A DNA stretch of 45,853 nucleotides from a virus. Lineage: Duplodnaviria > Heunggongvirae > Uroviricota > Caudoviricetes. Below, piece after piece: positions 1-45,853 of this stretch (positions are counted from its first letter, which is position 1; each line of letters opens with the position of its first letter). Under the pieces are notes generated by a model, which ran no database searches, was not told the DNA's origin, and was given only the letters and a program-made list of their open reading frames with translations. Where the stretch lies: positions 1 to 45,853 of IMG/VR virus record IMGVR_UViG_3300014890_000015, one strand, 5' to 3'. Made by a program: the position numbers and the translations under genes.

Positions 1-444
1 TTATTCTGGTACGAAATCCCTAACCGACTTCAAATCCTCCAGACTACTCAGCTCCTCTTTCATCTCACGCTGACGACGATAAATCTCGGCGTTGCGATCG
101 ACCTGCGCCTGCGCCAACATTTCTTCGAAGCGTTTCACCACGTCGGGTTTGAGGTCGCCTTCATCAAGGGCAGTCAGAAAGTCGTTCAGCGTGCCGGGCT
201 TTGAATCGTCGTATACGGCAATGTCGCCAACACAGTACTCGTCGCGCCAGTCCTGTTTCAGATATACGCAGTATTTTCCGGTCTGCGCCTTAAAACAGTA
301 CTCGCCACAGTTTCCTGTCACCACATCAGCAACTGTGCGCATCACCACTTCTGACGTGTTTACCCGGGATTTCAGAATTATGTGGCATCCGGACATGGGG
401 ATGCCTGCGCCATCAATCAGCGCACCTGATATCACTACAGACAT
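1..444 (-). CDS. hypothetical Cys-rich protein (147 aa) distal to tail fibre assembly gene
   Basis: Complete ORF ending at window position 1; sits after tfa in the tail-fibre module; no family recognised. Confidence 0.35.
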   Translation of the reverse strand: MSVVISGALIDGAGIPMSGCHIILKSRVNTSEVVMRTVADVVTGNCGEYCFKAQTGKYCVYLKQDWRDEYCVGDIAVYDDSKPGTLNDFLTALDEGDLKPDVVKRFEEMLAQAQVDRNAEIYRRQREMKEELSSLEDLKSVRDFVPE

Positions 445-467
445 AGTTTTTCTCGCAATAAATTAAA

Positions 468-1013
468 TCAGGAAGAGGCTTCCGGAGAGACGGGCCATTC
501 AATGGCGTTATATGAGCTTTTATCAGCGATGGTGCTGAAATCCATCGCCTGCAGCGATTTCGCGTATATACGGTACGCTTTCAGTTTTTCCCTGTCTTCG
601 TCGCTGATTAATCCCAGCAGCAGGTCTTTTTCCCATTCGCTGGTCATGATGCTGGCCCGTTGTAACAGGGCATCGCGCTCATCTTCCGCTTTAAGTTTGT
701 AGTCGAAGACAAATTTATCGTCGCGGTAAAACCAGTAACCAGGCACGGTAATACGGCGGTTAGCGGTAATATCAGGAACTTCAATAACACTAGCGTTACG
801 GGGTTCAATACCTGTCACATCCTTACCGACCCACACCACGCGCCCGTCTCCGGTGTAAACCATTTTTATGGTGTCACTGGCAAAATTTTTCAGCTCTTCA
901 TACCAGTTTCTGTCATCCTCCGAAAAAAGCCAGGTGATACCATGTTGTTTTGTCATCTGATATTGTTCTGCGGTTTTCGGATTGCCTGCAGTAATATTTT
1001 TTAAATGCAACAT
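468..1013 (-). CDS. tail fibre assembly protein (Tfa-like)
   Basis: 181 aa directly downstream of the tail fibre gene (2-nt gap); C-terminal EWP..P motif typical of Tfa chaperones. Confidence 0.6.
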   Translation of the reverse strand: MLHLKNITAGNPKTAEQYQMTKQHGITWLFSEDDRNWYEELKNFASDTIKMVYTGDGRVVWVGKDVTGIEPRNASVIEVPDITANRRITVPGYWFYRDDKFVFDYKLKAEDERDALLQRASIMTSEWEKDLLLGLISDEDREKLKAYRIYAKSLQAMDFSTIADKSSYNAIEWPVSPEASS

Positions 1014-1015
1014 TG

Positions 1016-2569
1016 TTAAACACTCGCCACGTTATACCAGGTGCCGTTAATCAGTTTCTGAAGCGGTCGATAATACACGCCGCCGATGTTATCTGCCGAA
1101 TTACTTCCGGTTTCCTGCACATTAATACCGGATAACCCGTGGCCTGAAGGTGAGCGAAATGTCCAGGATACTTGGTTACCTCCCGGTTTGTAATACATTT
1201 CGGAACCATAACGCACATCCTGCACGCCGCCATTTCGCTGCTGATAACGGGCATCGAAATTTCCATAGTTTAATGGGGTCATCTGTCCGTTTACAGCGAA
1301 TGTGATACTGCCATCGGTATTTCTCTGGCTGTAAAAATGCCAGCCGGAATCATCACCAAGCTCTGCAACTACAGGTCGGGATGAATTACCCCATAAATTA
1401 AACATTGCGTTTTTCGTGGAGTTGTTGGTGCTGGATAACGTGAATTTTTTAGCATTTCCGGCCTGAATATTTTTTAACGCTATCGCCACACCATTCCGGA
1501 AACGAAATACATGCTGTCCATTCGCATAAACATCCAGAATGCCGTCGCCGTTTTGTTTTATACCTGTATCGTTATCCCCGAGAGCAATTGAGTTTCCGCC
1601 CAGCGCGTTCTTAACGCCGATACCCAGTGCACCATTGACCTGAGAACCACCGCCAACAGACACTTTATGCGACATGGATATCTCTCCTGTCCGCAAATTA
1701 ATGGTGAGCGGACGCAGGGGACCAATATCTCCATTCTCGCCCTGACCTTCACTAGTAGGGATAAGGTGCAGGCACTCTTCAGAACGGCGAAAAATAAGGC
1801 CAAAAGCCTCGTTAAAAATCCTCAATGCATTAACACCACGTATTTTCAGCTCCCCGGTCATCAAATCACCAGATTTTTTTACATATCGCAGATCAAAATC
1901 TGAATAGATATTGCCGGGGTTTATCACACTGAAATAACTTTTCTCGCTATCAAGAAGGCAAATCAAAGGAATACCCTTAATGATATCATTCGCTACCAGC
2001 TCGGACTTGTTCCCCTTATAAAGTGGGAACGTACCAAGAACCTTTCCGCCTAGTGTTAGTTGAAGTGTCGCCGCGTTGGTATTGTTCTGAACGGGGAAAA
2101 CTATAATCGGAGTTCGTAGCGTCCAATCTGTACCTCCATTAACAAAAAACGTCGAGGGAAGTTCCAGCGTCAGTGCGTTTGCAGTGCCACCAGTAACACC
2201 CGCAATATAATGACCGCTCTGAAGCTGCGCTATCTGTACGAAATAGTTTTCCGATCCACGCGTGGCAAAGTTAGCCACAACGTCATTAAGGGACCAACCT
2301 TTCGCGGTTGTTCCTTCCTGCCCACGAATGACTTTCAGCACATCACCGCTTACCGATACCAGGTGACAAATCTCAAATGCAGACTCTTTATTATCGGTAA
2401 GCGTAATTTTTGCATAGACGCGTTGCCCGTTCGATTTATTTTCAAAATCGGCAGAAAGCAATTTTGCAAATTTAGCTCCCGTGCCCGGCATCACCGGAAT
2501 ATCAGTCTGAATCGTCGTAATATCACCAGCCAGTGCTGAAACAACGTTATTTCCGAATCCAAGAATCAT
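1016..2569 (-). CDS. tail fibre protein
   Basis: 517 aa, Gly/Asn/Ser-rich C-terminal half; ATGA overlap with upstream baseplate gene; position before tfa. Confidence 0.55.
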   Translation of the reverse strand: MILGFGNNVVSALAGDITTIQTDIPVMPGTGAKFAKLLSADFENKSNGQRVYAKITLTDNKESAFEICHLVSVSGDVLKVIRGQEGTTAKGWSLNDVVANFATRGSENYFVQIAQLQSGHYIAGVTGGTANALTLELPSTFFVNGGTDWTLRTPIIVFPVQNNTNAATLQLTLGGKVLGTFPLYKGNKSELVANDIIKGIPLICLLDSEKSYFSVINPGNIYSDFDLRYVKKSGDLMTGELKIRGVNALRIFNEAFGLIFRRSEECLHLIPTSEGQGENGDIGPLRPLTINLRTGEISMSHKVSVGGGSQVNGALGIGVKNALGGNSIALGDNDTGIKQNGDGILDVYANGQHVFRFRNGVAIALKNIQAGNAKKFTLSSTNNSTKNAMFNLWGNSSRPVVAELGDDSGWHFYSQRNTDGSITFAVNGQMTPLNYGNFDARYQQRNGGVQDVRYGSEMYYKPGGNQVSWTFRSPSGHGLSGINVQETGSNSADNIGGVYYRPLQKLINGTWYNVASV

Positions 2570-3192
2570 TTTTGAATCACCGTTGTTGCATAGGAATAAA
2601 TAAAAGGGAGTTTTACATATTTCTGGTCAATGGCATCTTTCAGAAAATAGCCTATACCATCACCATATTCTGGTATCTGAATAGAAAAAACACTGTCCGA
2701 TACAGTCACGCTCACATCAAAAGTGTGCTGCAACGGCGGGTCTATTCCGTTTTTCCCATGAATGAACCGTGCCACACGGCGCTTTAACCAGTCAATGCAG
2801 AAATGCGAACCGTCAGCCTTATAAAAATTCCAAGTTAATATTCGCTTGAAATAATCATCCGGAACATACGATGCCTGCCCCGGAACATAATTCCGCATTG
2901 CCGCATAAGGGATTGTATTGTATTCAATGGTATCGTATGCGCCGCGTGCAATAGCCTCCTCGGAAACCTGTAGTAAAGGCCTTTCAACGCCATAAATCCC
3001 GAGAGCAATCCAGTCCAGCAATTGCCCGGTTATTGATTCCGATGTCCAGCATGGCAATGCCAGATTGTTGAGTGAATCGAGGTATTCCTGAGCAATTTCA
3101 TTGTATGCATCAAAGAACGCAACAACATTCGGATCATCTCTGTACTGCACAAACGGATTAGCAGGGAGAATTTTTTCAGTCAGATATTGCAT
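2566..3192 (-). CDS. baseplate/tail protein (P2 gpI / Mu gp48-like position)
   Basis: ORF follows the J-like gene and precedes the tail fibre; start taken at internal ATG 3192 to limit overlap with J; start uncertain. Confidence 0.4.
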   Translation of the reverse strand: MQYLTEKILPANPFVQYRDDPNVVAFFDAYNEIAQEYLDSLNNLALPCWTSESITGQLLDWIALGIYGVERPLLQVSEEAIARGAYDTIEYNTIPYAAMRNYVPGQASYVPDDYFKRILTWNFYKADGSHFCIDWLKRRVARFIHGKNGIDPPLQHTFDVSVTVSDSVFSIQIPEYGDGIGYFLKDAIDQKYVKLPFIYSYATTVIQK

Positions 3193-4402
3193 ACTTGTTA
3201 ACTTGAACCTGTGATACCACCGTCGAAAAATAGGAATAGGTATCGCCATAAACCAGGCTTGTGTCTTTTGCCGGAGGAACAATATGGCCATTAATGCCAA
3301 TGCTCACACTGATTGTTGAGATCAACGTCGCATCAACCAACAATCTGACGGAACTGGTAAAAATATCCTGGATTCGCAGCAGATTTATCGGGTGTCCGAC
3401 TTCAATAGAATTGATGTAATCAGCAACGTTTTGCTGCACAGCCATAGCAATACCCGCCGGATCAACATAATCATCAGATACAGTGTTCCAGGTGATTAGC
3501 ACCATGACGTTTTGTGATGACGGGATAACGAACGGCACCTGATAAACATCTGGCGAAACGGTTATTGAAACCGTGCGTTTTTCCACTGCCGCACCAGATG
3601 GATTGCTAACATCGTTGGTCAGTTTCGAAATATCCGGTACAGATTTGTAAATAGCATAAGCCACATCATACGGATCACCGCCACCAACAACCGCAACCCA
3701 TTTCCCCAGCGACGACTGCCGGAAAGAAATCAGGTTTTCTCGCACACCGCTTACTGATTTGAGCATCGCTTTAAAGCAATCCGGTGTTCCCTGCACACCA
3801 AACATGCCGGACTCCATGACTTCGGCGCGGTAAGATGCCCACGTTTGCGCCTCCTGACCTGGCATCCCTGCGGTAAGGTTCGTGCATTTTACAGGCTGAT
3901 CTTTGGGTACCGATGTAATGACCTGCGTTACGGTTCCTTCCGGTACAGCCCATGAGCCTGACGTTGTGGCCACACAGTAGACTGGCTCAGTCTGCCCGCT
4001 TTCCGGCACCACCGTATCGCGGGAAACTGCATACTGGTAGTTGCCGTCACCGACAACAAATCCTTTAGGGATACCAAACCCCGGCAACGCCTCAAACACC
4101 ACGTATACCGCCGTATTTGTACTTAATCCCTTCTGTGCTCCATAAATGTTTCCGAGTTGCATCAGTAACGGAATATTTGCGCCGTATGGGCTTACGGAGT
4201 TAATAAGGTCCACCCGCGCCTGGTCTATTAATGCCAGCGCCCCGACTGCCGTGCTGGCAAGGTCAGTAATAAGCCCCGCCGGAAGGTTGGCTGTATATCC
4301 AGGTACTTTTTCAGCAACTCTGATGATAAGATTTGCAAGCAAATCATTGGGTGGCGTAGGCTGCGCCCCCGCACTGGTCATAGTAATTGGTATTTCTGAC
4401 AT
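3176..4402 (-). CDS. baseplate J-like protein
   Basis: 408 aa in conserved V-W-J-I-fibre order of P2/Mu-type baseplates. Confidence 0.5.
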   Translation of the reverse strand: MSEIPITMTSAGAQPTPPNDLLANLIIRVAEKVPGYTANLPAGLITDLASTAVGALALIDQARVDLINSVSPYGANIPLLMQLGNIYGAQKGLSTNTAVYVVFEALPGFGIPKGFVVGDGNYQYAVSRDTVVPESGQTEPVYCVATTSGSWAVPEGTVTQVITSVPKDQPVKCTNLTAGMPGQEAQTWASYRAEVMESGMFGVQGTPDCFKAMLKSVSGVRENLISFRQSSLGKWVAVVGGGDPYDVAYAIYKSVPDISKLTNDVSNPSGAAVEKRTVSITVSPDVYQVPFVIPSSQNVMVLITWNTVSDDYVDPAGIAMAVQQNVADYINSIEVGHPINLLRIQDIFTSSVRLLVDATLISTISVSIGINGHIVPPAKDTSLVYGDTYSYFSTVVSQVQVNKYAISD

Positions 4403-4414
4403 ATTTACTCCATT

Positions 4415-4440
4415 AAAAAACCCGCTTTCGCGGGTTTTTT
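4415..4440. terminator. bidirectional rho-independent terminator-like hairpin (A6-CCCGC-TTTC-GCGGG-T6)
   Basis: Perfect GC stem flanked by A-run and T-run, between cargo gene stop (4443) and J start (4402). Confidence 0.6.
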
Positions 4441-4442
4441 AC

Positions 4443-5561
4443 TTATTCAACCTCTTCTAAACTACTCGCTCTGGACCCTCGGCGGAAATTATCATCATTT
4501 TTAACATACTCGTATGAATCCAGAATCAAACCAGATATGCGAAGTATATCTTCCGGATTAGTTATATGTATCCTTTTACCATCCGTATCAAGTCGAGCTC
4601 GTCTTATTTCATTCAACTGAACTTCACTAAGCGAAATAGGTAAAGTTATAAATGAAGATTTTTTATCATAAAATCTTAACAGCCATCTATTAGTTTTACC
4701 ATTCAATAGTACACCAAAATATGACTCAGTATCTTTATATTCTATATTATCTTCTGTTTGTATGATTTGTTTTACCCTTTCAAATAGCTCCAATTCTTTG
4801 GCTGTGGTTATTATGTTGGGGTTTTCTTCATCAACAATGGCGTTATTAACTTGTGTATCCGTTGCATCATTTTCTTTAGTTTGCTCTACCGGTTGTGTAG
4901 ATAGCCCGGAAACCACCATTGCGCTAACAGCGCGCTCAACGGCCTGTTTAACTAATGGAGTCACGAACTCAAGAAATCTCTGATTAAGTTGTCTCTCAAT
5001 ATTTGAACGACTAGCAACATATCGAACAAACTCCAGATCAACTTCACGAAGACTAGAACTGATTGTTTTAGTAAATGAATTCAAATAAACACTTTCTTCA
5101 GCCAGTGTCCGTAAAGCCTCTGGTTTGAATTTATCATAACGAAAACGAAATAATTGTGTAATATCGGAGTGAGTTAGAGAATCCATTCTTATTTTTAAAA
5201 ACGGCGTTGAATCCATTATGTTTTTTTGTTTCAAATCCGTAAAAAAACGCCATTCAACACCATTTGTAATGGCTGATATAGTAACTTCCGGTGTTGAATT
5301 AAAATATCTTGATAGCTGTGGGCAGTGATTATCAATTTGTTCTGAAAACGATTTCGCCTCAATGAACATCACAGGAACATCATGACAAAATAAAGCGTAA
5401 TCAACCCGTTCATTAGCCTTAACCCCGGGGAAGTCAGCACTATACTCAGCTTTGACTTTTCTTGGATCATACGGAGTAAAACCAAGAATATCTAGTAATG
5501 GCATAATGAGTGCTTGTTTTGTCGTTTCTTCAGTTGTACAAAACACCCCATTTTGCAACAT
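4443..5561 (-). CDS. HsdR_N-like / PD-(D/E)xK nuclease-domain protein; moron, candidate phage-defence or exclusion gene
   Basis: N-terminal ~110 aa shows the HsdR N-terminal nuclease pattern (TEETTKQALIMPLLD..LGF, DYALF, VMFIEAK, Q..RY, TNGVEWRFF); C-terminal ~250 aa unassigned; gene visibly AT-rich versus flanks; own leader upstream and terminator downstream. Confidence 0.6.
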   Translation of the reverse strand: MLQNGVFCTTEETTKQALIMPLLDILGFTPYDPRKVKAEYSADFPGVKANERVDYALFCHDVPVMFIEAKSFSEQIDNHCPQLSRYFNSTPEVTISAITNGVEWRFFTDLKQKNIMDSTPFLKIRMDSLTHSDITQLFRFRYDKFKPEALRTLAEESVYLNSFTKTISSSLREVDLEFVRYVASRSNIERQLNQRFLEFVTPLVKQAVERAVSAMVVSGLSTQPVEQTKENDATDTQVNNAIVDEENPNIITTAKELELFERVKQIIQTEDNIEYKDTESYFGVLLNGKTNRWLLRFYDKKSSFITLPISLSEVQLNEIRRARLDTDGKRIHITNPEDILRISGLILDSYEYVKNDDNFRRGSRASSLEEVE

Positions 5562-5750
5562 GCTCTGTGTGTATTTTTAACTTATTTGCAAAATTTTCCA
5601 TACTTGTCTCCTCCATGGTAACAATATGTATTTTGCAAATCCGAAATAATATATGTCAATATGCTCCAGCTTAGAAAATTACTCGCCCCCCTAAAATATC
5701 TCTCTACAGCACTCCAAACCAAGGTAAAAGTTTTATCATAAAACTGTGAT

Positions 5751-6098
5751 TCATACCGGCACCTGCGCCCGGTAACTGGTCCCATTAAAAAACACAACAT
5801 CGATGTTATAGGTGGGGTTCGCTGCCCCATCTACCTTTGAAATTGCCAGCGATGCAAAATACCCGGCAAACTGTTGCTGAACCATGTTCACATAGTAGTC
5901 TGGGTAAATCTGCTGCACGATGCACTGCTGCGCAGGAATACCGTAATTCGCGTAAAACGGCGACTCCCCCAATCCCAGCTTTAACGTCTGAATGAGCGTC
6001 GTCAACCAGCCGTAGGAGAAATCACCGTTGGCGTCAGATTCTACTGCAACCCATTTTTTGTTGCCGTTCGCGTCGGTGACGCGGCCCCATGTTCTCAT
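5751..6098 (-). CDS. putative baseplate wedge protein (gpW/gp25-like position)
   Basis: 115 aa from ATG 6098 with GGTGAGGG RBS; position after spike-like gene; assignment by size and synteny only. Confidence 0.35.
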   Translation of the reverse strand: MRTWGRVTDANGNKKWVAVESDANGDFSYGWLTTLIQTLKLGLGESPFYANYGIPAQQCIVQQIYPDYYVNMVQQQFAGYFASLAISKVDGAANPTYNIDVVFFNGTSYRAQVPV

Positions 6099-6105
6099 CG
6101 TGCCC

Positions 6106-6204
6106 TCACCACCATCGGATCTGGCCAACAAAATAACCAGACGCCAGAATCAGAAAGACCAACCAAATAAGCAAAAACTTCCAAGTGGATAATTTTTCAG
6201 CCAT
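6106..6204 (-). CDS. small hydrophobic ORF (32 aa, MAEKLSTWKFLLIWLVFLILASGYFVGQIRWW)
   Basis: ATG preceded by GGGAGA RBS at 8 nt; one predicted TM helix; stop overlaps RBS of downstream gene; absent from ORF track (below 60 aa). Confidence 0.25.
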   Translation of the reverse strand: MAEKLSTWKFLLIWLVFLILASGYFVGQIRWW

Positions 6205-6274
6205 AACTCGAATCTCCCGAATCAGTTTGCTAAAATCAAACACGACTTCTCCTTGCCTTATTCAAGGTCAGAAA

Positions 6275-6307
6275 CAAAAAGCCCCGAACTGTTCCAGCAG
6301 CCGGGGC
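6275..6307 (-). terminator. terminator-like hairpin inside baseplate operon
   Basis: GCCCCG...CGGGGC stem followed by T-rich tract on the minus strand, downstream of spike-like gene. Confidence 0.3.
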
Positions 6308-6349
6308 TTTCGCTTTATGAGATAGAATTTAAAGTGAAATGAACCGGAA

Positions 6350-7063
6350 TTAACCCTGATTTGGTTGCTTCGACGTGATCGTGCTGCCGCCGCTTTGAAC
6401 GCCAGTCACATCGTGGCTGTGGCCGCTGGCACTGACACCTTTTATCACCGCGTCATTTTGCACAGTAAGCGGGCCAATCAGCGAAGCGGTTGTATCCTTC
6501 ATCTGGGCTTTGTCCTGGACGATTGGACCGTTGAGGTGAATTTTCCCGTTCAGGAAAATATCTTCGGCCTCGAGGTAAACAGCTTTCGACTTTTGCCTGA
6601 TTTCTTCCGGTGCCACCGTTACCGAGCTACTGCCGTCCTCTGTTTTGAGGATCGCGCCATCCGGACCGTACAAAACGATTTTTTGCGGATCTTCGTCGGA
6701 CCAGTCCTTGTTTGCCAGTGGCACGAAAAACAGTGGAGTGAGCGACATCGAGTAAGAGAGCGTCGCCATACCGGTTCCCAATCCGGACACACCGCGCAGG
6801 GATACATCAGCGGCAATTGTTACTCCTCGATCGCCCGGCTGTATCGGGTAACGAATATACGGGAATGTGGCGACAGGGATTGTTATCTGCGGAAAGTTGA
6901 TCCCCTCCGGCAGCATATCAAACTGAACTGTCACTATCTGCCCGCTGACACCGACAACATGGCAGGGCAATTCGCGGCCTTTAAGCTCGGCTTGCTGGTT
7001 ACCAGAACTGGTCATCATCTCCGACAGTGTTCGGAGAAACGGTAATTTTTGAGCGTTTGACAT
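6350..7063 (-). CDS. baseplate spike / assembly protein V-like
   Basis: 237 aa, Gly/Ser-rich C-terminus; 1-nt TAATG coupling with upstream gene; position in baseplate module. Confidence 0.45.
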   Translation of the reverse strand: MSNAQKLPFLRTLSEMMTSSGNQQAELKGRELPCHVVGVSGQIVTVQFDMLPEGINFPQITIPVATFPYIRYPIQPGDRGVTIAADVSLRGVSGLGTGMATLSYSMSLTPLFFVPLANKDWSDEDPQKIVLYGPDGAILKTEDGSSSVTVAPEEIRQKSKAVYLEAEDIFLNGKIHLNGPIVQDKAQMKDTTASLIGPLTVQNDAVIKGVSASGHSHDVTGVQSGGSTITSKQPNQG

Positions 7064-31490: not shown

Positions 31491-31491
31491 A

Positions 31492-35484: not shown

Positions 35485-35490
35485 GGTCCG

Positions 35491-37114: not shown

Positions 37115-37133
37115 TTATGAACTGTATTCATAA
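37115..37133. promoter_or_regulatory. operator-like palindrome TTATGAA-N5-TTCATAA in divergent promoter region
   Basis: 7-bp inverted arms 10 nt upstream of repressor start codon. Confidence 0.35.
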
Positions 37134-37142
37134 GATGGTGGT

Positions 37143-38391: not shown

Positions 38392-38412
38392 AGTAACCAA
38401 GAAGGGAATTAT

Positions 38413-38685
38413 ATGCAAGAGATAAGTTTTGAAGTAACAGCAAAAGATGTACAGGTTAAGCCCGATTACAATCAAAAATTATGTATTGAAGTCAATGGCG
38501 TGAAGTTATCAGACCTGATTGATTCAGTTGAAGATAACGACGCTATTATTGAAATGGTTGGAGCCGAAGAAATAGCAGAATACTTTTCAACAGAGGGGCG
38601 TCTTCATGAGCTTCTGGAAGAATTTCCATATCAGGATATCGCTACATTTCTGGAAATTAATGGTTATAAAATTACCGAGGAATAA
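38413..38685 (+). CDS. hypothetical acidic protein (90 aa)
   Basis: ORF starting 20 nt after the inverted-repeat structure. Confidence 0.4.
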   Translation: MQEISFEVTAKDVQVKPDYNQKLCIEVNGVKLSDLIDSVEDNDAIIEMVGAEEIAEYFSTEGRLHELLEEFPYQDIATFLEINGYKITEE

Positions 38686-38703
38686 AGTAGCTCAGGTGGC
38701 GTT

Positions 38704-38913
38704 ATGGAACGTAATCATCTAACAGCTATCAGTGCCGCACAGAGTAAATTCGCCATCGCTGTATTTTTACAGGATGAAGAAATGTTTGAGCAGGCCATTA
38801 TTCAGTTTGCAATTGCGACCGGGAGTAAAATAAATGAACACTTTGTTCGCTCTTGTCATGACCGTTTTTCTGACATCAGGCGAAACTCAGGATGTTGTTA
38901 CCGGAATTTATAA
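38704..38913 (+). CDS. hypothetical protein (overlaps next gene by 80 nt; extent uncertain)
   Basis: ORF-track frame only. Confidence 0.25.
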   Translation: MERNHLTAISAAQSKFAIAVFLQDEEMFEQAIIQFAIATGSKINEHFVRSCHDRFSDIRRNSGCCYRNL

Positions 38914-39070
38914 CTCCGAATCTGAATGCAAGGCCGCAGCTATTGAGCAAAAAGTAGCTGGTGAATGTTTCCCTGTTGAGAAATTTATCCGGCCTGTAGA
39001 TGAAGAAATTCCCGCAGACCTCACAGGAGAAAATCATGAAAATAAAATGTGGTTACCACCTTTGCAATAA
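38834..39070 (+). CDS. hypothetical protein with N-terminal hydrophobic segment (78 aa)
   Basis: GGGAG RBS before ATG. Confidence 0.4.
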   Translation: MNTLFALVMTVFLTSGETQDVVTGIYNSESECKAAAIEQKVAGECFPVEKFIRPVDEEIPADLTGENHENKMWLPPLQ

Positions 39071-39275
39071 AGACGTTGAAGAAAGCAAAACCATTAAAAG
39101 ACCACTTCATTTCATGCGTGGAGTTATCCCAACGACGGAAATGAAAAAAATATTGTAGTGAAAGTTGTGCCGAAAAAGACCAGATGGCACACGAACTTTA
39201 ATTAACTGACTATCCGAAACTGAATTTATGCCAGCAATGGCAGGGATTCGCTCAACCTTAATTAAGGAGAAAAAC

Positions 39276-39551
39276 ATGATTACCAGTTATGAAGCCACTG
39301 TTGTTACTACTGATGACATCGTTCACGAAGTCAGCCTGGAAGGAAAGCGTATTGGCTACGTGATTAAAACAGAAAATAAAGAAACCCCTTTCACTGTGGT
39401 TGATATCGACGGTCCATCAGGCAACGTTAAAACACTTAACGAAGGCGTCAAAAAAATGTGCCTGGTGCATATCGGAAAGAATCTGCCCGCAGAAAAAAAA
39501 GCCGAATTTCTGGCAACTCTGATTGCAATGAAATCAAAGGGTGAAATCTGA
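39276..39551 (+). CDS. hypothetical protein (91 aa; RacC-like position)
   Basis: AAGGAGA RBS before ATG 39276; immediately upstream of recE. Confidence 0.4.
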   Translation: MITSYEATVVTTDDIVHEVSLEGKRIGYVIKTENKETPFTVVDIDGPSGNVKTLNEGVKKMCLVHIGKNLPAEKKAEFLATLIAMKSKGEI

Positions 39552-39651: not shown

Positions 39652-42600
39652 ATGAGCACAAAACCACTCTTCCTTTTACGGAAAGCGAAAAAATCATCCG
39701 GTGAACCTGACGTCGTCCTGTGGGCAAGCGACGATTTTGAATCAACCTGTGCCACTCTGGACTACCTGATCGTTAAGTCAGGTAAAAAACTGAGCAACTA
39801 TTTTAAAGCTGTTGCCACAAATTTTCCTGTCGTTAATGAACTTCCCCCTGAAGGTGAGATCGATTTTACCTGGTGTGAACGCTATCAACTCAGCAAAGAC
39901 TCCATGACCTGGGAACTAAAACCGGGAGCAGCGCCAGACGACGTTCACCATCAGGAGGATGCACAGGAAACCGAAGAACCGACGGGAGGCCAGGAAGAAA
40001 ACGCGCAGGCAGACGCCCACGAGGATTGCCAGGATTGCGAAGTCTCTGTAGCCACTTTGCGGTTCACACAGCGTCTTCTGCACATTTTTACGTATGCAGC
40101 CGGGGATCGAAAATACCTGCATCATGCCACCCGTGAACAACGCAAACACATTACTGCTCTTGAGATGGATCAGGAAAACAGCTATGTCCAGAATCTGCTG
40201 TTGGCCATACGCAGCATGGCAGAACCGACAACTCTGGATAATGCCGCCCTGCTCCGCCTGACTGATGCAATTAAGGCAGTGTTCTCTATCACGAAAAAAC
40301 ATCAGCCCTATGAATTTAAGAATTTCATTTCAGCCTGGCTGGATACCGAACACATTGATCGCGGTCTTCTGACAAAAGAATGGCGAAAAGGGAATCGTGT
40401 TTCACGCATCACTCGCACGGCTTCCGGTGCTAATGCTGGCGGCGGGAACCTCACCGATCGCGGCGAAGGTTTCGTCCACGATCTGACGTCACTGGCGCGC
40501 GATGTAGCCACTGGCGTACTGGCCCGTTCAATGGACGTGGACATCTATAACCTTCATCCGGCACACGCTAAACGCATTGAGGAAATTATCGCTGAAAATA
40601 AACCGCCCTTTTCTGTTTTCCGCGACAAATTCATCACCATGCCTGGCGGGCTGGATTATTCCCGCGCCATCGTGGTTGCGTCCGTGAAAGAAGCACCAAT
40701 AGGGATCGAGGCCATCCCCGCACACGTCACTGAATATCTGAACAAAGTACTGACTGAAACCGATCATGCCAACCCTGATCCGGAAATCGTGGATATTGCC
40801 TGCGGTCGTTCCTCTGCCCCGATGCCGCAGCGTGTAACAGAAGAAGAAAAACAGGATGATGAAGAAAAACTGCAACCATCTTGCGCAATGGCAGATGAAC
40901 AGGCAACGGCTGAAACAGTGGAACCGGATGCAACTGAACATCATCAGGACACGCAGCCGCTGGATGCTCAGTCACAGGTAAATTCTGTTGATGCGAAATA
41001 TCAGAAACTGCGGGCAGAACTCTATGAAGCCCGGAAAAACATTCCGCCCAAAAATCCTGTCGATGCAGACAAATTACTGGCTGTCTCTCGCGGAGAATTT
41101 GTTGAAGGGATTAGCGACCCGAATGATCCGAAATGGGTTAAGGGGATCCAGACCCGCGATTCTGTGTACCAGAATCAGCCAGAAACGGAACAGAACGACC
41201 CAAATACGCAACAAAACGAGCCAGAAACGAAACAGCCTGAGCCAGTAGTGCAACAACAGGAAACGGAGAAAGTTTGCACCGCCTGCGGTAAGGCTGGCGG
41301 CGGCAACTGTCCTGACTGTGGTGCGGTGATGGGCGACGCAACGTATCAGAAAACCTTTAATGAAGAAAATCAGAATGAATATCAGGAAAAAGGTCTGGAG
41401 GAAATGGAAGGTGCTGAACATCCGCACAAGGAGAACGCTGGCAGCAATCCGCATTGCGATTGCAGTGATGAAGCTGGTGAAACGACAGCACCTGTAGTAA
41501 CTGAAATCATGTGGCCGTCATATTTCGAGCCTGGCCGCTATGAAAACCTCCCGAACGAGGTTTATCACTCCGCCAACGGAATAAGCAGCACAATGCTGAA
41601 GGATGCCCGCATCAGCCTGATGTATTACCACGGACGGCACATTGCCGGAACTATTCCGGGCGAGGAAAGTGATGCATTGCTGCGTGGGCGGATTATTCAC
41701 AGCTATGTTCTGGAAACGGATAAATTCGCTGATGAGTATGCCATTCCGGTACCGGTTCCTGAATATGTGGTTACTACTTCTAACGAACTGATCGCCATCA
41801 TTAAAAAACACAATGCCAGTCTGCCAGCACTGATGACACCAGAGCAGATGAAAGAGTGGATCGAAAGCTACAACAGCACTCTTATACAGCCACTGTCGGT
41901 AAGTGCCGGGGCCGAAGAAACAGGCATCCTTTACGGTTCGCTTCCGGAGGAATTCCGGCGTATTCCTGAGGGGGAAAAACACACAGCATCAGCAATGAAA
42001 GCCTGTATTAAAGAATACAACGCAAGCCTCCCTCCTCTGCTGAAAGCCAGTGGAACACGAGAGCAGCTCCTGGAGCAAATTGAAACTGTAGATCCAGAAC
42101 TGGCAAAAAAAGAACGTGCTAAATCTTTGCCTTACAACATCAGTGGCACAAAAGAGCAATTAACCGAAATCGCCCGGAAAATTCGCCCGGAACTGGTAAC
42201 ACTGGAGGACTGGCAAAAACGCCAGCAAGAAGAAAACGCCGGGAAAACGTTTATCAGTCCGGATATGTATGAACAGGCAAAAAATATTCACGCAGCACTG
42301 CAAAACAATACTGATGCAGCAAGGCTACTCAACCACCCGGATCGCAAATCTGAAATCAGCTATTTCGGGTTTGATGAAGAAACCGGGCTGGAAATCAGGG
42401 TCCGTCCTGATATCGAAATCCGGCTGCCATACGAAAGCATTTGCGCCGACGTGAAGTCAGTCAGCCTCGGTTATGTGCGACAGGAACGACTGAAAGATCG
42501 CCTGCACCGTGAAATTATTGAACGTGATTATCACCTCAGCGCAGCAATGTATTGCGATGTGGCAAACCTGGACAAATTTTTCTGGATCTTCGTCAACAAA

Positions 42601-42798
42601 GATGCTGGCTATCACTGGGTGGCCGTCGTGGAAGCCTCGCAGGAACTCCTGGAACTTGGTCGACAGGAATATCGCCGGACACTACGACAGATAAACGAAG
42701 CTCTGGAGACAAACAACTGGCCAGCACCGATTACCGAAAGTTATACCGACGAATTAAACGACTTTGATCTTCGTCGTCTTGAAGCACTGAGCATCTGA
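39652..42798 (+). CDS. recE: exodeoxyribonuclease VIII (RecE-like)
   Basis: N-terminus [26 protein letters not shown] recalled as RecE-like; C-terminal PD-(D/E)xK-type nuclease region (RPDIEI...ADVKS); Q/E/P-rich low-complexity linker near 41160-41260. Confidence 0.7.
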
Positions 42799-42809
42799 GG
42801 AAGGACACA

Positions 42810-43862
42810 ATGAACGAATTAACTCAACAAGAAAATATTAACTCTAATGTTGCGGTTTTCAGCCCTCAGTCCCTGGCTGCAATTCAGACATTTTCCCAGG
42901 TAATGGCTTCCGGCATGGCTACTGTACCGGAACACCTCCGGGGAAATCCATCAGACTGCATGGCCATCACCATGCAGGCGATGCAGTGGCAAATGAACCC
43001 TTACGCAGTAGCTCAGAAAACTTTCGTTGTGAATGGTGTGCTCGGATATGAAGCGCAACTGGTTAATGCCGTAATCAGTACTCGTGGGCCGCTAACCGGG
43101 CGTATTGAATATGACTGGTTCGGGCCGTGGGAAAAAATTATCGGGAAATTTGAAATCAGGAAGAACGACAAGGGGAAAGAATATCGTGTACCTGGCTGGA
43201 AGCTGGCCGATGAAAACGGGATCGGAGTTCGCGTCCAGGCAACACTACGCGGAGAGAGCAAGCCACGCGTACTGGAGTTACTTCTGGCGCAGGCCAGAAC
43301 ACGTAACTCAACGTTATGGGCCGATGATCCTCGCCAGCAGCTTGCCTATCTGGCACTGAAACGCTGGGCGCGCCTTTATTGCCCTGAAGTGATTCTTGGA
43401 GTGTACACCCGGGACGAACTGGACGAACCACAGGAAAAAATCATTAATCCGGTTCAGGAACATAAAAATACATCCGCCTGCCGTGCGGAACGTGAAACAA
43501 CAATTATTGAGCAGGATGCCGGGGAAAACTGGATCAGTGCTTTCCGTGAACGTATTGAGCAGGCACAAAGCACCGGAGAAACAACATCACTTCGCCAGGA
43601 AGTGGAAGATCATAAAAATACACTTGGCGCTCTCTACACAGAACTTAAAGGAAAAGTGGTTCAGCGTCATCACCGTCTCAATGCTATTGCCCGTATTGAG
43701 ACGATGATAAATGACCTGCCTTCATCAGGTGATCCAGAAGCAGAACAAAAATTTATTGCTCTGGAAAATACGCTGAATGCTGCACGACCACATCTGGGAG
43801 AATTATATGAGGCGTATAAAACGACACTGACAGATATGAAACCAGAATATATCGGCTCCTGA
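42810..43862 (+). CDS. putative single-strand annealing recombinase (RecT-like partner, assigned by position)
   Basis: 350 aa immediately downstream of recE with good RBS; sequence not clearly RecT-like by eye. Confidence 0.4.
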   Translation: MNELTQQENINSNVAVFSPQSLAAIQTFSQVMASGMATVPEHLRGNPSDCMAITMQAMQWQMNPYAVAQKTFVVNGVLGYEAQLVNAVISTRGPLTGRIEYDWFGPWEKIIGKFEIRKNDKGKEYRVPGWKLADENGIGVRVQATLRGESKPRVLELLLAQARTRNSTLWADDPRQQLAYLALKRWARLYCPEVILGVYTRDELDEPQEKIINPVQEHKNTSACRAERETTIIEQDAGENWISAFRERIEQAQSTGETTSLRQEVEDHKNTLGALYTELKGKVVQRHHRLNAIARIETMINDLPSSGDPEAEQKFIALENTLNAARPHLGELYEAYKTTLTDMKPEYIGS

Positions 43863-43925
43863 TATTTACTATGGCGGTGTAGCCTCACCGCCATAACAAA
43901 ACTTTATTTTATGAGAGAAAAGACA

Positions 43926-44120
43926 ATGCGGTATGAAAAAGTCAAAGCATGTCCGTTTTGTGGTTGTCCATCAGTAACGGTGAAAGCTATTTCAGGATAT
44001 TACCGCGCGAAGTGTAACGGATGCGAATCCCGAACCGGCTATGGTGGAAGTGAAAAAGAAGCACTCGAACGATGGAATAAACGAACCACTGGAAATAATA
44101 ATGGAGGTGTTCATGTATAA
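43926..44120 (+). CDS. Lar-family restriction alleviation protein
   Basis: MRYEKVKACPFCGC...C..C...ERWNKR zinc-ribbon pattern typical of Lar/RalR. Confidence 0.55.
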   Translation: MRYEKVKACPFCGCPSVTVKAISGYYRAKCNGCESRTGYGGSEKEALERWNKRTTGNNNGGVHV

Positions 44121-44301
44121 AATTACCGCCACTATTGAAAAGGAAGGTGGCACTCCTACTAACTGGACAAGGTACTCAAAAACAAAGTTAACCAAATCGG
44201 AATGCGAAAAAATGCTCTCGGGGAAAAAAGAAGCAGGCGTTTCCAGAGAGCAGAAAGTAAAGCTGATAAATTTTAATTGCGAGAAACTTCTGCCCTCGTG
44301 A
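44113..44301 (+). CDS. hypothetical small protein (62 aa)
   Basis: GGAGGTG RBS before ATG 44113. Confidence 0.4.
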   Translation: MYKITATIEKEGGTPTNWTRYSKTKLTKSECEKMLSGKKEAGVSREQKVKLINFNCEKLLPS

Positions 44302-44400
44302 GTTGCATTATATCCAAATTATAACTTCATAGCTGATTATTAATAATCAACGTCGGGCGTCAATTTCAGTCTAATATTGTCGCCCGCCAGAGGTGATGCG

Positions 44401-44616
44401 ATGGCACAAGTGATTTTTAATGAAGAGTGGATGGTTGAATACGGTCTGATGCTTCGTACTGGTCTGGGGGCCAGACAAATTGAAGCATACCGTCAGAATT
44501 GCTGGGTGGAAGGCTTTCACTTCAAACGAGTATCTCCTTTAGGTAAGCCAGACAGCAAGCGAGGGATTATCTGGTACAACTATCCGAAGATAAATCAGTT
44601 TATCAAAGACTCATGA
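44401..44616 (+). CDS. xis: excisionase-like protein
   Basis: 71 aa, GAGGTGA RBS, stop 1 nt before integrase ATG. Confidence 0.55.
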
Positions 44617-44617
44617 T

Positions 44618-45853
44618 ATGTCTAAATTACCAACAGGTGTCGAGATTCGGGGTAAATACATTCGCATCTGGTTCATGTTTCGAGGAAAACGATGTCGGGA
44701 AACACTGAAAGGCTGGGAGGTAACTAACAGTAACATTAAAAAGGCCGGGAATTTAAGAGCGTTGATAGTTCATGAAATCAACTCCGGTGAATTTGAGTAT
44801 TTAAGGCGTTTTCCCCAGTCCAGCACTGGGGCAAAAATGGTGACAACGAGGATCATAAAAACGTTCGGGGAGCTTTGTGATATCTGGACAAAAATTAAAG
44901 AGACAGAGTTAACAACAAACACAATGAAGAAAACGAAATCACAATTAAAAACACTCAGAATAATAATTTGTGAGAGCACCCCAATATCACATATTCGTTA
45001 TAGCGATATCTTAAACTATCGGAATGAACTGCTGCATGGAGAAACGCTTTACCTGGATAATCCAAGATCCAACAAAAAAGGAAGAACTGTGCGCACAGTT
45101 GATAACTATATCGCCCTGCTCTGTTCGTTGTTACGTTTTGCATATCAGTCGGGATTTATATCAACCAAACCATTTGAAGGTGTAAAAAAATTACAGCGAA
45201 ACAGAATAAAGCCTGATCCGTTATCTAAAACAGAATTCAATGCATTAATGGAAAGTGAAAAAGGACAGAGCCAGAACTTGTGGAAATTTGCCGTTTACTC
45301 CGGGCTTCGTCACGGGGAACTGGCTGCTCTGGCGTGGGAGGATGTGGATTTCGAGAAGGGAATTGTGAATGTCAGAAGAAACCTGACGATACTTGATATG
45401 TTCGGCCCCCCAAAAACAAATGCGGGGATCCGGACGGTAACACTACTACAGCCTGCTCTTGAAGCACTGAAAGAGCAATACAAACTGACCGGGCATCATC
45501 GCAAAAGCGAAATCACTTTTTATCATCGGGAGTACGGCAGAACCGAAAAGCAAAAACTGCATTTTGTTTTCATGCCCAGGATGTGTAACGGAAAACAGAA
45601 ACCTTATTACTCGGTAAGCAGTTTAGGTGCGAGATGGAATGCAGCTGTAAAACGTGCTGGTATTCGCCGCCGTAATCCGTACCATACGCGGCATACTTTT
45701 GCCTGCTGGCTGTTGACGGCAGGAGCGAACCCGGCGTTTATAGCCAGCCAGATGGGGCATGAAACTGCGCAGATGGTGTATGAAATTTACGGTATGTGGA
45801 TTGATGACATGAACGACGAACAGGTAGCCATGTTGAATGCGCGGTTATCGTAG
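44618..45853 (+). CDS. int: tyrosine recombinase, phage integrase
   Basis: 411 aa; catalytic-region pattern VYSGLRHGEL ... HTRHTFACWLL ... MGHETAQMVYEIYGMW (R, H-x-x-R, Y); ends at last base of window. Confidence 0.85.
   Translation: MSKLPTGVEIRGKYIRIWFMFRGKRCRETLKGWEVTNSNIKKAGNLRALIVHEINSGEFEYLRRFPQSSTGAKMVTTRIIKTFGELCDIWTKIKETELTTNTMKKTKSQLKTLRIIICESTPISHIRYSDILNYRNELLHGETLYLDNPRSNKKGRTVRTVDNYIALLCSLLRFAYQSGFISTKPFEGVKKLQRNRIKPDPLSKTEFNALMESEKGQSQNLWKFAVYSGLRHGELAALAWEDVDFEKGIVNVRRNLTILDMFGPPKTNAGIRTVTLLQPALEALKEQYKLTGHHRKSEITFYHREYGRTEKQKLHFVFMPRMCNGKQKPYYSVSSLGARWNAAVKRAGIRRRNPYHTRHTFACWLLTAGANPAFIASQMGHETAQMVYEIYGMWIDDMNDEQVAMLNARLS

What the first reader, a model, noticed from the sequence alone, without database searches (positions are those of the whole stretch)
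1..45853. Mosaic prophage: Rac-like early region joined to a Mu/SfV-like contractile-tail late region, apparently intact
Early genes (int, xis, lar, recE, RacR-like, YdaS/T-like, DnaC-like) follow Rac order, yet the element has a full lysis cassette, terminase, portal, capsid and a sheath/tube/baseplate tail, unlike the defective K-12 Rac. The window starts and ends exactly on stop codons, so att sites and any further cargo past the tail-fibre end are outside view.
Basis: partly seen in the sequence, partly recalled or inferred. Interest (0 to 1): 0.45.

Follow-up and report, generated by a model that had tools for sequence, protein, structure and literature searches.

The report
Full-length Rac-type prophage, contractile tail
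This is an ordinary, nearly complete member of the already described family of full-size Rac prophages of E. coli, not a new Rac/Mu hybrid; its tail is contractile but belongs to a different lineage from Mu or SfV, and one of its two tail-fibre gene sets has been deleted.

Summary
The window is one prophage running from tail-fibre genes to intR, and both ends fall on stop codons. The early region is Rac: IntR, XisR, RcbA, RalR (plus RalA sRNA), RacC, YdaT, YdaV and YdaW are 94-99% identical to K-12. Four modules are swapped. The repressor shows no similarity to RacR, RecT and Kil are other types, and the RecE nuclease domain is only 29% identical.

The late region has terminase, portal, capsid, sheath, tube, frameshifted chaperone, tape measure, baseplate and fibre, all full length. 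A confident model of the 445-aa protein matches only contractile-sheath structures.

"Mu/SfV-like" holds only for gene order, Baseplate_J and the fibre/chaperone pair. The module is collinear with Pantoea phage PdC23 over 22 genes.

The combination is not new. Rac-SA53 (KU052037) carries the same late region at about 95%, as do 73 complete E. coli genomes at about 97%. Active full-size Rac phages (KingRac) are published.

"Intact" needs three qualifiers:
- ORF 1-444 is a deletion fusion that removed the second fibre and its chaperone.
- An accessory nuclease gene has a 2-bp frameshift.
- A 10-N assembly gap lies at 31000-31009.

Low interest.

The parts
44618..45853 (+). intR, tyrosine integrase (411 aa)
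   Evidence: 99% aa identity to K-12 IntR. Pfam Arm-DNA-bind_2 plus Phage_integrase. The identical protein lies next to ttcA-dbpA in 6 of 6 places read.
44377..44616 (+). xisR excisionase (DUF1233)
   Evidence: 99% to K-12 XisR. PF06806 E 4e-19.
43911..44301 (+). ralR (Lar-type toxin) and rcbA/ydaC (DUF1187), with RalA antitoxin sRNA antisense at 44119-44297 (-)
   Evidence: 94-95% to K-12. PF14354 and PF06688. Rfam RF02694 RalA at 216.7 bits against a gathering score of 170.
39652..43862 (+). recE (1048 aa) and recT (350 aa) recombination pair
   Evidence: Exonuc_VIII plus PDDEXK, and RecT. RecE is 63% identical to K-12 over aa 1-761 and 29% in the nuclease domain. RecT has no significant match to K-12 RecT and is 63% identical to Rac-SA53 RecT.
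37847..39551 (+). early-left small genes: YdaF-like, 90-aa ORF, lambda-Kil-type, DUF1482, YdaE, RacC
   Evidence: PF07151, PF06301 and PF07358. RacC is 95% and YdaF 88% identical to K-12; there is no hit to KilR.
36357..37607 (.). immunity region: HTH repressor 37143-37607 (+), YdaS-family Cro 36763-37077 (-), YdaT (cII-like) 36357-36779 (-)
   Evidence: The repressor has an HTH_3 domain only and no S24 peptidase. It has no similarity to RacR and is 70% identical to SA53 'dicA'. Cro is 42% identical to YdaS. YdaT is 95% identical.
33954..36279 (-). replication genes: O-like YdaU, DnaC/IstB-like YdaV, YdaW (DUF1627, full length 270 aa)
   Evidence: phrog_2509 replication initiation, E 2e-89. 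IstB_IS21 and DUF1627. YdaV is 95%, YdaW 99% and the YdaU C-terminal half 81% identical to K-12.
26715..33518 (-). nin-like region and cargo: DUF4406, small ORFs, HNH (spans the N gap), 274-aa ORF, hok/sok, Phd-like plus Doc, Rem-like, DUF1367, YbcO, DUF1133 Q-like antiterminator
   Evidence: Pfam. Doc TIGR01550 at 120.6 bits against a cut-off of 38.65. sok RF01794. No PADLOC hits.
31000..31009 (.). 10-N assembly gap inside the HNH gene
   Evidence: In the collinear homolog L017, 32 bp sit in this position and the flanks are identical, so the join is genuine and about 32 bp are missing.
26211..26364 (-). tRNA-Gly(TCC) and tRNA-Thr(TGT) between Q and the lysis genes
   Evidence: ARAGORN and Rfam.
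24231..25531 (-). lysis cassette: two holin-family genes, M15 endolysin, 60-aa lipoprotein (Rz1-like)
   Evidence: PF16931, PF05449 and PF13539. The lipoprotein has a lipobox and a weak hit to SfV Rz1. No i-spanin ORF was found.
21061..23470 (-). terminase small (363 aa) and large (442 aa) subunits
   Evidence: PF03592. PF03237 and phrog_2. TerL is 60% identical to PdC23 TerL.
15872..21045 (-). head module: portal, MuF-like head morphogenesis, DUF2213 scaffold/protease-like protein with a TolA-like repeat, 205-aa head protein, major capsid (342 aa)
   Evidence: PF06381 and phrog_146 portal, E 1e-74; phrog_324; PF09979. The capsid is 44% identical to the annotated PdC23 major capsid protein. 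All are full length against C7 and SA53.
13536..15856 (-). four head-tail connector / neck genes (170, 146, 151, 314 aa)
   Evidence: Assigned by position. Full-length PHROG families of unknown function. 34-41% identical and collinear with PdC23 gp08-gp11.
12199..13536 (-). contractile tail sheath (445 aa, DUF3383-type)
   Evidence: phrog_205 'tail sheath', E 1.9e-52. AF2 model with pLDDT 88.1 and pTM 0.85. Foldseek top hits are the sheaths of Bas63, Sf14 and PhiTE, E 3e-13 to 1e-9, TM about 0.55-0.58; the chain in the Mu baseplate entry ranks 20.
11744..12187 (-). tail tube (147 aa), inferred
   Evidence: It lies directly after the sheath. It is 40% identical to PdC23 gp13 in the same position. 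phrog_6566 has no annotation. It was not tested by fold.
11065..11759 (-). tail assembly chaperone with a -1 programmed frameshift (slippery T_TTT_TTT at about 11366)
   Evidence: Two overlapping ORFs, 11130-11759 and 11065-11358, with the heptamer at the start of the overlap.
9005..11068 (-). tape measure protein with a C-terminal lytic transglycosylase-like region (687 aa)
   Evidence: phrog_7694, phrog_2276 (tape measure) and phrog_7182. Homologs carry PF01464 SLT.
2566..9001 (-). baseplate: 222-aa and 88-aa proteins, hub (335 aa), spike/V-like (237 aa), W-like (115 aa), Baseplate_J (408 aa), gpI/DUF2612-like (208 aa)
   Evidence: phrog_196 hub, phrog_6 and PF04865. Weak P2 gpV hit. Collinear with PdC23 gp16-gp22.
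4443..5610 (-). accessory gene inside the baseplate operon: HSDR_N-domain nuclease-like protein, with a 2-bp frameshift after codon 17
   Evidence: PF04313 and PF13588; phrog_4225 'endonuclease'. 386 aa in C7 and L004. Here a 2-bp deletion leaves a 372-aa ORF from an internal ATG. GC is 0.39-0.42. Rac-SA53 and pPE4 carry an antirepressor cassette at this position.
468..2569 (-). tail fibre (517 aa) and its assembly chaperone (181 aa)
   Evidence: phrog_6859 and phrog_454; PF02413. 29% and 46% aa identity to Mu S and U'.
1..444 (-). deletion remnant: in-frame fusion of the N-terminal 113 aa of the second tail fibre to the last 34 aa of its chaperone
   Evidence: PF08400 covers aa 1-119. aa 1-110 are 96% identical to SA53 tail3 (1061 aa). 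The 3' 103 nt are 89% identical to the 3' end of SA53 tail4. The junction lies at a shared M(A/V)AQAQ motif.

Best explanation
The window is the body of a temperate phage of the Rac family, the lambdoid-regulated prophages that integrate into the ttcA gene of E. coli. Only the two att sites are missing from view.

Inferred life cycle:
- IntR and XisR integrate and excise it at ttcA.
- A DicA-like HTH repressor, a YdaS-family Cro and the cII-like YdaT form the lysis/lysogeny switch.
- The leftward early operon supplies Kil, RecE/RecT recombination and the RalR/RalA toxin-antitoxin pair.
- YdaU (O-like) and YdaV (DnaC-like) start replication.
- A DUF1133 Q-type antiterminator turns on a single late operon. 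That operon carries two tRNAs, holins and endolysin, terminase, portal, capsid, and a contractile tail built from sheath, tube, frameshifted chaperone, tape measure, baseplate and fibre.

The late module is the standard one of full-size Rac prophages such as Rac-SA53. It belongs to the PdC23/Certevirus-type lineage of temperate myoviruses, not to Mu or SfV. K-12 Rac is a different, heavily deleted member.

This copy has lost its second (accessory) tail-fibre gene and that fibre's chaperone through a short-homology deletion. It also carries a frameshifted accessory nuclease gene. Everything known to be essential is full length, so it is probably still able to make particles.

Shown here: gene content, homologies and the sheath fold. 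Inferred: function, regulation and inducibility.
For: - Nucleotide matches. Rac-SA53 covers 78% of the late half at 95% and 51% of the early half at 93%. 73 complete E. coli genomes hold at least 80% of the late half at about 97%. In strain C7 the element abuts uspF-ompN, the Rac locus. ETEC4090 and W13-16 carry both the tail-fibre end and the early half in one region.
- Rac backbone proteins are 94-99% identical to K-12. RalA sRNA is present. The identical IntR always sits beside ttcA.
- Every structural protein aligns end to end with its C7 and/or SA53 homolog.
- Sheath fold is confirmed.
- 22 late genes are collinear with PdC23 at 31-60% aa.
- Sheath homologs (37% aa) occur in mitomycin-inducible Yersinia phages shown by EM to have contractile tails.
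- A frameshift site is present in the chaperone.
- Full-size and active Rac-like phages are published.
- Record PP818812 is the excised, attP-joined form of a 94-96% identical phage.
Against: - att sites and flanks cannot be seen, and the source genome was not found.
- The terminal ORF is a deletion fusion.
- The repressor lacks an S24 autocleavage domain, and the antirepressor cassette found in SA53 and pPE4 is replaced here by the nuclease gene. The induction route is therefore unknown.
- No i-spanin was recognised.
- About 32 bp are unread at the N gap.
- The tube and capsid assignments rest on position and on homology to annotated phage genes, not on a fold test.
Confidence: 0.88

Rival explanations
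1. It is a cryptic, non-inducible remnant like K-12 Rac. It looks complete but can no longer excise, replicate or form infectious particles, because of the fibre deletion, loss of the antirepressor route, or damage to att sites outside the window.
For: - The second fibre and its chaperone are deleted.
- There is no antirepressor and no cleavable repressor.
- In other genomes with the identical stub, the attR arm is joined to non-uspF contexts exactly at the att core.
- KingRac is only weakly induced by mitomycin C.
Against: - There is no IS element, stop or frameshift in any core gene.
- The first fibre and its chaperone are intact.
- Side fibres with this N-terminal domain are dispensable in lambda (established knowledge: lambda PaPa stf frameshift).
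- The stub allele is widespread, in 83 collection blocks. This fits a circulating phage as well as vertical inheritance.
Confidence: 0.3
2. One reading: a recent, unusual recombinant in which a Rac early arm was joined to the tail module of a Mu- or SfV-like phage.
For: - The gene order sheath-tube-chaperone-TMP-hub-spike-W-J-I-fibre is the same as in Mu.
- Baseplate_J falls in the same PHROG as Mu gp47.
- The fibre and Tfa are 29-46% identical to Mu S/U.
Against: - There is no BLAST or profile similarity to Mu or SfV sheath, tube, hub, capsid or portal.
- The chain in the Mu baseplate entry (493 aa, the length of gpL) is only rank 20 by fold.
- The same early-plus-late combination already exists in Rac-SA53 and in many genomes.
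Confidence: 0.04
3. The window is an assembly chimera: two unrelated contigs (late arm and early arm) scaffolded across the N run at 31000-31009.
For: A 10-N run is present, and the source assembly is a draft that could not be retrieved.
Against: Both flanks of the gap are contiguous and near-identical in a complete E. coli genome, with 32 bp in place of the Ns. The gap lies within the nin region, not at the early/late boundary.
Confidence: 0.03

Closest known systems
Escherichia phage Rac-SA53 (KU052037; full-size Rac-like prophage of LT-II ETEC, Jobling 2016, cited in PMC5917428)
   Same: It has the same architecture from intR to the tail fibres at ttcA/uspF. The late module is about 95% nt identical over 78% of the late half, and structural proteins are mostly 96-100% aa identical. 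It has the same type of repressor/Cro (65-70% aa) and RecT (63%).
   Different: SA53 carries the LT-IIa and pertussis-like toxin genes, an IS1, an antirepressor cassette in the baseplate operon, and an intact second fibre (tail3, 1061 aa) plus chaperone. The window has none of these. It has instead tRNAs, Doc/Phd, an HSDR_N nuclease gene and a different endolysin type.
Cryptic prophage Rac of E. coli K-12
   Same: intR, xisR, rcbA, ralR/RalA, racC, ydaT, ydaV and ydaW are 94-99% aa identical and in the same order.
   Different: K-12 Rac has RacR/YdaS immunity, KilR, a different RecT and sieB. It has lost lysis, head and tail genes, and its late remnants (ynaA tape-measure fragment, lomR, stfR, tfaR) are of another tail type. 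Only the StfR N-terminal domain (43%) matches the window.
KingRac (active 46.8-kb Rac-like prophage, Frazao et al. 2019, PMC6731689)
   Same: It is a full-size Rac-like prophage at ttcA of almost the same length, and it forms particles and lysogenises K-12 in the mouse gut.
Pantoea phage PdC23 (genus Certevirus), Klebsiella phages Chronis/RothC/RothD, Yersinia vB_YenM_06.16-1 group
   Same: The whole morphogenesis module from TerL to the fibre N-terminus is collinear with PdC23 over 22 genes at 31-60% aa. The other phages listed were matched through the sheath only: the Yersinia group at about 37% aa, with contractile tails shown by EM, and Chronis/Roth at about 36-37%.
   Different: The early, regulatory and integration regions are unrelated, and the late genes are only distantly related.
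Phages Mu and SfV
   Same: They have a contractile tail with the same baseplate gene order, a Baseplate_J homolog, and a Mu S/U-like fibre and chaperone.
   Different: The sheath, tube, hub, W, I, capsid and portal families differ. There is no Mu N-type DNA-circulation protein. The head is not HK97/SfV-type or Mu gpT-type.

Membership tests
Rac-family (ttcA-integrating) prophage | IntR-type integrase and XisR excisionase | tested here: met
   99% aa identity to K-12 IntR and XisR; Pfam domains.
Rac-family (ttcA-integrating) prophage | Integrated in ttcA with the Rac att core at both ends | not testable with these tools
   The window stops at the intR stop codon and at the last tail ORF. The source genome was not found. 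Indirect evidence: the identical IntR lies beside ttcA in 6 of 6 places, and other genomes with the identical stub have the Rac P-arm 321 bp downstream.
Rac-family (ttcA-integrating) prophage | Early-left operon kil-ydaE-racC-recE-recT-ralR-rcbA in that order | tested here: met
   The order is conserved. RacC, RalR and RcbA are 94-95% identical. RecT and Kil are replaced by non-orthologous types, and the RecE nuclease domain has diverged.
Rac-family (ttcA-integrating) prophage | RacR / YdaS / YdaT immunity region | tested here: inconclusive
   YdaT is 95% identical and Cro is 42% identical to YdaS. The repressor has no similarity to RacR (E 4.5) and is DicA-like. Immunity modules are known to vary within phage families.
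Rac-family (ttcA-integrating) prophage | YdaU/YdaV/YdaW replication block | tested here: met
   YdaV 95%, YdaW 99% (aa 1-167), YdaU C-terminal half 81%.
Mu/SfV-like tail module | Sheath and tube in the Mu gpL / gpM families | tested here: not met
   Mu and SfV sheath fall in phrog_165 and the Mu tube in phrog_185; the window proteins fall in phrog_205 and phrog_6566. No tblastn hit. hhalign probability 0.1-0.4%. Only generic fold similarity, at rank 20.
Mu/SfV-like tail module | Mu-type hub (gpP), W (gp46), I (gp48) and DNA-circulation protein (gpN) | tested here: not met
   Different PHROG families (196 against 177, 7986 against 180, 8212 against 203). No DNA-circulation domain was found.
Mu/SfV-like tail module | Baseplate_J protein and S/U-type fibre plus chaperone, with Mu-like gene order | tested here: met
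   phrog_6 and PF04865 are shared. The fibre is 29% and Tfa 39-46% identical to Mu S/U/U'.
Contractile-tailed (myovirus-type) phage | Protein with the contractile sheath fold | tested here: met
   AF2 pLDDT 88.1. 62 PDB matches at E <= 0.001. The matches listed come from contractile tails, CIS or R-type bacteriocins; the best are Bas63, Sf14 and PhiTE.
Contractile-tailed (myovirus-type) phage | Tube, frameshifted chaperone, tape measure and P2/Mu-type baseplate downstream of the sheath | tested here: met
   Gene order and PHROG/Pfam hits. Slippery T_TTT_TTT. The tube is assigned by position and homology only.
Contractile-tailed (myovirus-type) phage | Contractile tail seen by EM | not testable with these tools
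   Known only for relatives: the Yersinia vB_YenM group 1, whose sheath is 37% identical.
Intact (inducible) prophage | All core genes full length, with no IS or frameshift | tested here: met
   End-to-end alignments to C7 and SA53 homologs for all head, tail, terminase and replication genes.
Intact (inducible) prophage | No deletions in the structural region | tested here: not met
   The second fibre and its chaperone have been reduced to a 147-aa fusion ORF. There is a 2-bp frameshift in the accessory HSDR_N gene.
Intact (inducible) prophage | A recognisable induction route and a complete lysis set | tested here: inconclusive
   The repressor lacks an S24 domain, and no antirepressor was found. 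Holins and endolysin are present, but only an Rz1-like lipoprotein and no i-spanin. The same lysis type is conserved in C7 and matches phiP27.

The most novel reading that the evidence does not exclude
The slot between the W-like and J baseplate genes may be an exchangeable accessory-gene hotspot of full-size Rac phages. It holds an antirepressor cassette in Rac-SA53 and pPE4, and an uncharacterised HSDR_N-domain nuclease in this window, C7 and L004. The nuclease could be a new single-gene prophage-encoded defence that no PADLOC model covers.

Separately, in other genomes the Rac attR arm is joined to unrelated loci exactly at the att core. This may mean that IntR drives secondary-site integration or large inversions.
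Probability: 0.15. Interest if true: 0.35.

Novelty: new member of a known kind. Interest (0 to 1): 0.12.

Why it matters
It matters little beyond annotation. The window adds one more mosaic variant to the known full-size Rac prophages. It has no toxin cargo, a swapped immunity region, and a deleted accessory fibre.

Three points are useful:
- The late module of these common E. coli prophages is poorly annotated. Most genes are 'hypothetical', and PGAP names the portal as an anti-CBASS Acb1 protein. The module can now be labelled as a PdC23/Certevirus-type contractile tail, with a sheath confirmed by fold.
- It should not be called Mu- or SfV-like.
- The short terminal ORF of such elements is a deletion scar, not a gene boundary.

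Tried and rejected
- **Source genome.** An exact look-up of the 517-aa fibre found nothing. Exact 60-mer scans of genome contigs and viral contigs found nothing. Flanks could therefore only be inferred from other genomes.
- **Sequence searches of the PDB.** Searches with sheath, capsid, tube and portal, and with two sheath profiles, gave nothing usable.
- **First sheath model.** A shallow alignment (26 sequences, at least 66% identity) gave pLDDT 52.9 and the model was discarded. A 51-sequence alignment from the representative search gave pLDDT 88.
- **hhalign against Mu/SfV sheath.** No signal.
- **PADLOC on ten cargo proteins.** No hits.
- **Literature.** The Jobling 2016 paper is not held. 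Searches for PdC23 and for DUF3383 with sheath were uninformative.
- **Operators.** No operator-like inverted repeats were found between repressor and cro.
- **Assembly chimera at the N run.** Considered and rejected.
- **K-12 Rac as a simple deletion derivative of this exact type.** Considered and rejected. Its tail remnants are of another type, and only ynaK links it to the C7-type region upstream of terS.

Full report
**What is in the window.** The 45,853-bp window is a single prophage body. Genes on the minus strand run from tail fibres (position 1) through baseplate, tail, head, terminase, lysis, two tRNAs, a Q-like gene, a nin-like region and the replication genes, up to about 37,077. 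A repressor gene at 37,143-37,607 and a leftward early operon lie on the plus strand and end in xis and int at 45,853.

**Early region.** Against K-12 Rac, fetched as L003, the following are 94-99% identical in protein and in the same order: IntR, XisR, RcbA, RalR, RacC, YdaT, YdaV and the first 167 aa of YdaW. Rfam finds the RalA antitoxin sRNA antisense to ralR/rcbA. The identical IntR protein lies next to ttcA-dbpA-zntB in all six places read.

Several modules are swapped:
- The 154-aa HTH repressor has no similarity to RacR (E 4.5) and is 70% identical to the 'dicA' of Rac-SA53.
- The Cro-like protein is only 42% identical to YdaS.
- Kil is the lambda-Kil type, not KilR.
- RecT is a different lineage.
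- The RecE nuclease domain is 29% identical.

So 'Rac order' is right, and 'RacR-like' is wrong.

**Late region.** Identified parts:
- two holin-family genes, an M15 endolysin and a 60-aa lipoprotein
- TerS and TerL
- a PF06381 portal
- a MuF-like head-morphogenesis protein
- a DUF2213 scaffold/protease-like protein
- a capsid protein
- four connector genes
- a 445-aa sheath candidate and a 147-aa tube candidate
- a chaperone pair
- a 687-aa tape measure with a transglycosylase-like end
- a hub, a spike, a W-like protein, Baseplate_J and a gpI-like protein
- a fibre and its Tfa chaperone

The chaperone ORFs overlap at a T_TTT_TTT slippery site, which fits the usual -1 frameshift. Every structural protein aligns end to end with its homolog in Rac-SA53 and/or E. 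coli C7, mostly at 96-100%. In C7, by contrast, an IS3 interrupts the DUF2213 gene.

**Is the tail contractile?** Pfam and NCBIfam have no model that hits the sheath, tube or capsid. Sequence searches of the PDB found nothing. PHROGs places the 445-aa protein in a 'tail sheath' family (E 1.9e-52), and some homologs carry DUF3383. A first AlphaFold model from a shallow alignment failed (pLDDT 53). A 51-sequence alignment drawn from the 50%-cluster library gave pLDDT 88.1 and pTM 0.85. Foldseek against the PDB returned 62 matches at E <= 0.001. The matches listed come from contractile tails or contractile injection systems, led by Bas63, Sf14 and PhiTE (TM about 0.55-0.58). Homologs with about 37% identity occur in the Yersinia vB_YenM_06.16-1 group. 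Those phages are mitomycin-inducible and have contractile tails by EM (PMC9224151). The contractile-tail reading is therefore supported. The tube rests on position and on homology only.

**Is it Mu/SfV-like?** I fetched Mu and SfV and compared all window proteins to them. Only the fibre (29%) and its chaperone (39-46%) hit Mu S/U/U'. Nothing structural hits SfV. Mu and SfV proteins fall in different PHROG families for sheath, tube, hub, W, I, capsid and portal, and only the large Baseplate_J family is shared. Profile-profile comparison of the sheath alignments gives probability below 1%. By fold, the chain in the Mu baseplate entry ranks twentieth. The resemblance is thus limited to the gene order common to P2/Mu-type baseplates and to an exchangeable fibre cassette. 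The true relatives are Pantoea phage PdC23 (genus Certevirus), Klebsiella phages Chronis/RothC/RothD and the Yersinia group. PdC23 is collinear with the window over 22 genes, from TerL to the fibre N-terminus, at 31-60% aa identity.

**Is the combination new?** No.
- Rac-SA53 (KU052037) is annotated from ttcA/attP/intR to tail fibres/attB/uspF. It carries the same late module at about 95% nt and a related early region.
- 73 of 5,426 complete E. coli genomes hold at least 80% of the late half at about 97%.
- In C7 the element abuts uspF-ompN-nifJ, the Rac locus.
- In pig ETEC strains (ETEC4090, W13-16) the tail-fibre end and the early half lie in one region of about 45 kb.
- Full-size Rac-like prophages were described by Jobling (cited in PMC5917428).
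- An active 46.8-kb one, KingRac, replaces K-12 Rac at ttcA in the mouse gut (PMC6731689).
- K-12 Rac's own late remnants (ynaA, lomR, stfR, tfaR) are of another type. Only the StfR N-terminal domain matches the window. K-12 YnaK is a fragment of a ParB-like gene that sits upstream of terS in C7 and is absent here.
- Unlike SA53, the window has no LT-II or pertussis-like toxin genes.

**Is it intact?** Nearly. There are three qualifiers.

(1) ORF 1-444 (147 aa) is a scar. Its first 113 aa are the N-terminal domain of the second tail fibre, which is 1,061 aa in SA53 and 477 aa in C7. Its last 34 aa are the C-terminus of that fibre's chaperone. The two are joined in frame at a shared M(A/V)AQAQ motif. 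The deletion removed the rest of both genes. No complete E. coli genome has this junction, but the identical protein is in 83 blocks of the large collection. In those genomes the stop is followed by a hairpin and 321 bp that are 84% identical to the Rac-SA53 attR arm, ending at the att core. The window therefore probably stops about 320 bp short of attR.

(2) The HSDR_N nuclease-like accessory gene inside the baseplate operon has a 2-bp deletion after codon 17 relative to C7 and L004.

(3) The N run replaces about 32 bp within an HNH gene. The flanks are contiguous in a complete genome, so it is a small assembly gap and not a chimeric join.

Two uncertainties affect function. The repressor has no S24 domain, and the antirepressor cassette that SA53 and pPE4 carry in the baseplate slot is absent. 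No i-spanin was found.

**Verdict.** The element is a new mosaic member of a known kind, a full-size Rac-type temperate phage with a PdC23/Certevirus-type contractile tail. It is probably still functional but lacks its accessory fibre. The 'Mu/SfV-like', 'RacR-like' and 'intact' labels need correction, and the 'mosaic joining' is not new. Interest is low.

Noticed in passing
L019 (PP818812.1), whole record: The GenBank record 'Actinobacillus phage vB_Apl-pPE4' (47.5 kb) is 94-96% identical to this E. coli Rac-type element over most of its length. It is written in the excised form (tail fibres, attP, int). The host label looks doubtful, but the record suggests that a phage of this type was recovered as excised or virion DNA.
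   Followed up: partly
window 5561-5610 (-): A 2-bp deletion in an A/G run shifts the frame after codon 17 of the HSDR_N nuclease-like gene, which is 386 aa in C7 and L004. A 372-aa ORF remains from an internal ATG. This could be a sequencing error or a real lesion.
   Followed up: yes
window 4443-6131, compared with L001 42225-44093 and L019 38401-39456: The slot between the W-like and J baseplate genes is variable. It holds an antirepressor plus two ORFs on the opposite strand in Rac-SA53 and pPE4, and a low-GC HSDR_N nuclease gene in the window, C7 and L004. The nuclease has no PADLOC hit.
   Followed up: partly
L004 10445-10900; L005 10445-10900: In genomes with the identical stub, the Rac attR arm is followed by two different non-uspF contexts, starting exactly at the att core TTGTT. 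One is a SPASM-gene fragment next to yeaE-gapA. The other is another prophage's holin/endolysin/terminase region. This suggests Int-mediated secondary-site events or inversions between prophages.
   Followed up: partly
window 19606-21045 (-); L002 30864-32300: RefSeq/PGAP names the homolog of this gene 'anti-CBASS protein Acb1 family protein'. Here it scores as a portal (PF06381 E 8e-12; phrog_146 E 1e-74) and sits in the portal position. This is probably a naming artefact.
   Followed up: partly
L003 16378-16641 (K-12 ynaK) against L002 35844-36632: K-12 YnaK (87 aa) is 94% identical to the N-terminus of a 262-aa ParB/Srx protein that lies upstream of terS in the C7 Rac-type prophage. ynaK is therefore a gene fragment. 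That gene and its neighbour are absent from the window.
   Followed up: yes
window 28605-29288, 29498-29820, 43911-44297: There are three toxin-antitoxin-type modules in one prophage: a Phd-like 59-aa ORF plus Doc (TIGR01550), hok/sok, and RalR/RalA.
   Followed up: partly
window 23470-24485: After the M15 endolysin there is only a 60-aa lipoprotein (Rz1-like) and no Rz-like inner-membrane spanin ORF. A KTSC-domain ORF lies on the opposite strand at 23892-24104.
   Followed up: partly
window 17987-18079: A 42-bp tandem repeat (2.2 copies) encodes the Ala/Glu/Lys-rich 'TolA-like' stretch in the middle of the DUF2213 head protein. This accounts for the 'TolA' and 'nudix' names given to homologs.
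   Followed up: no
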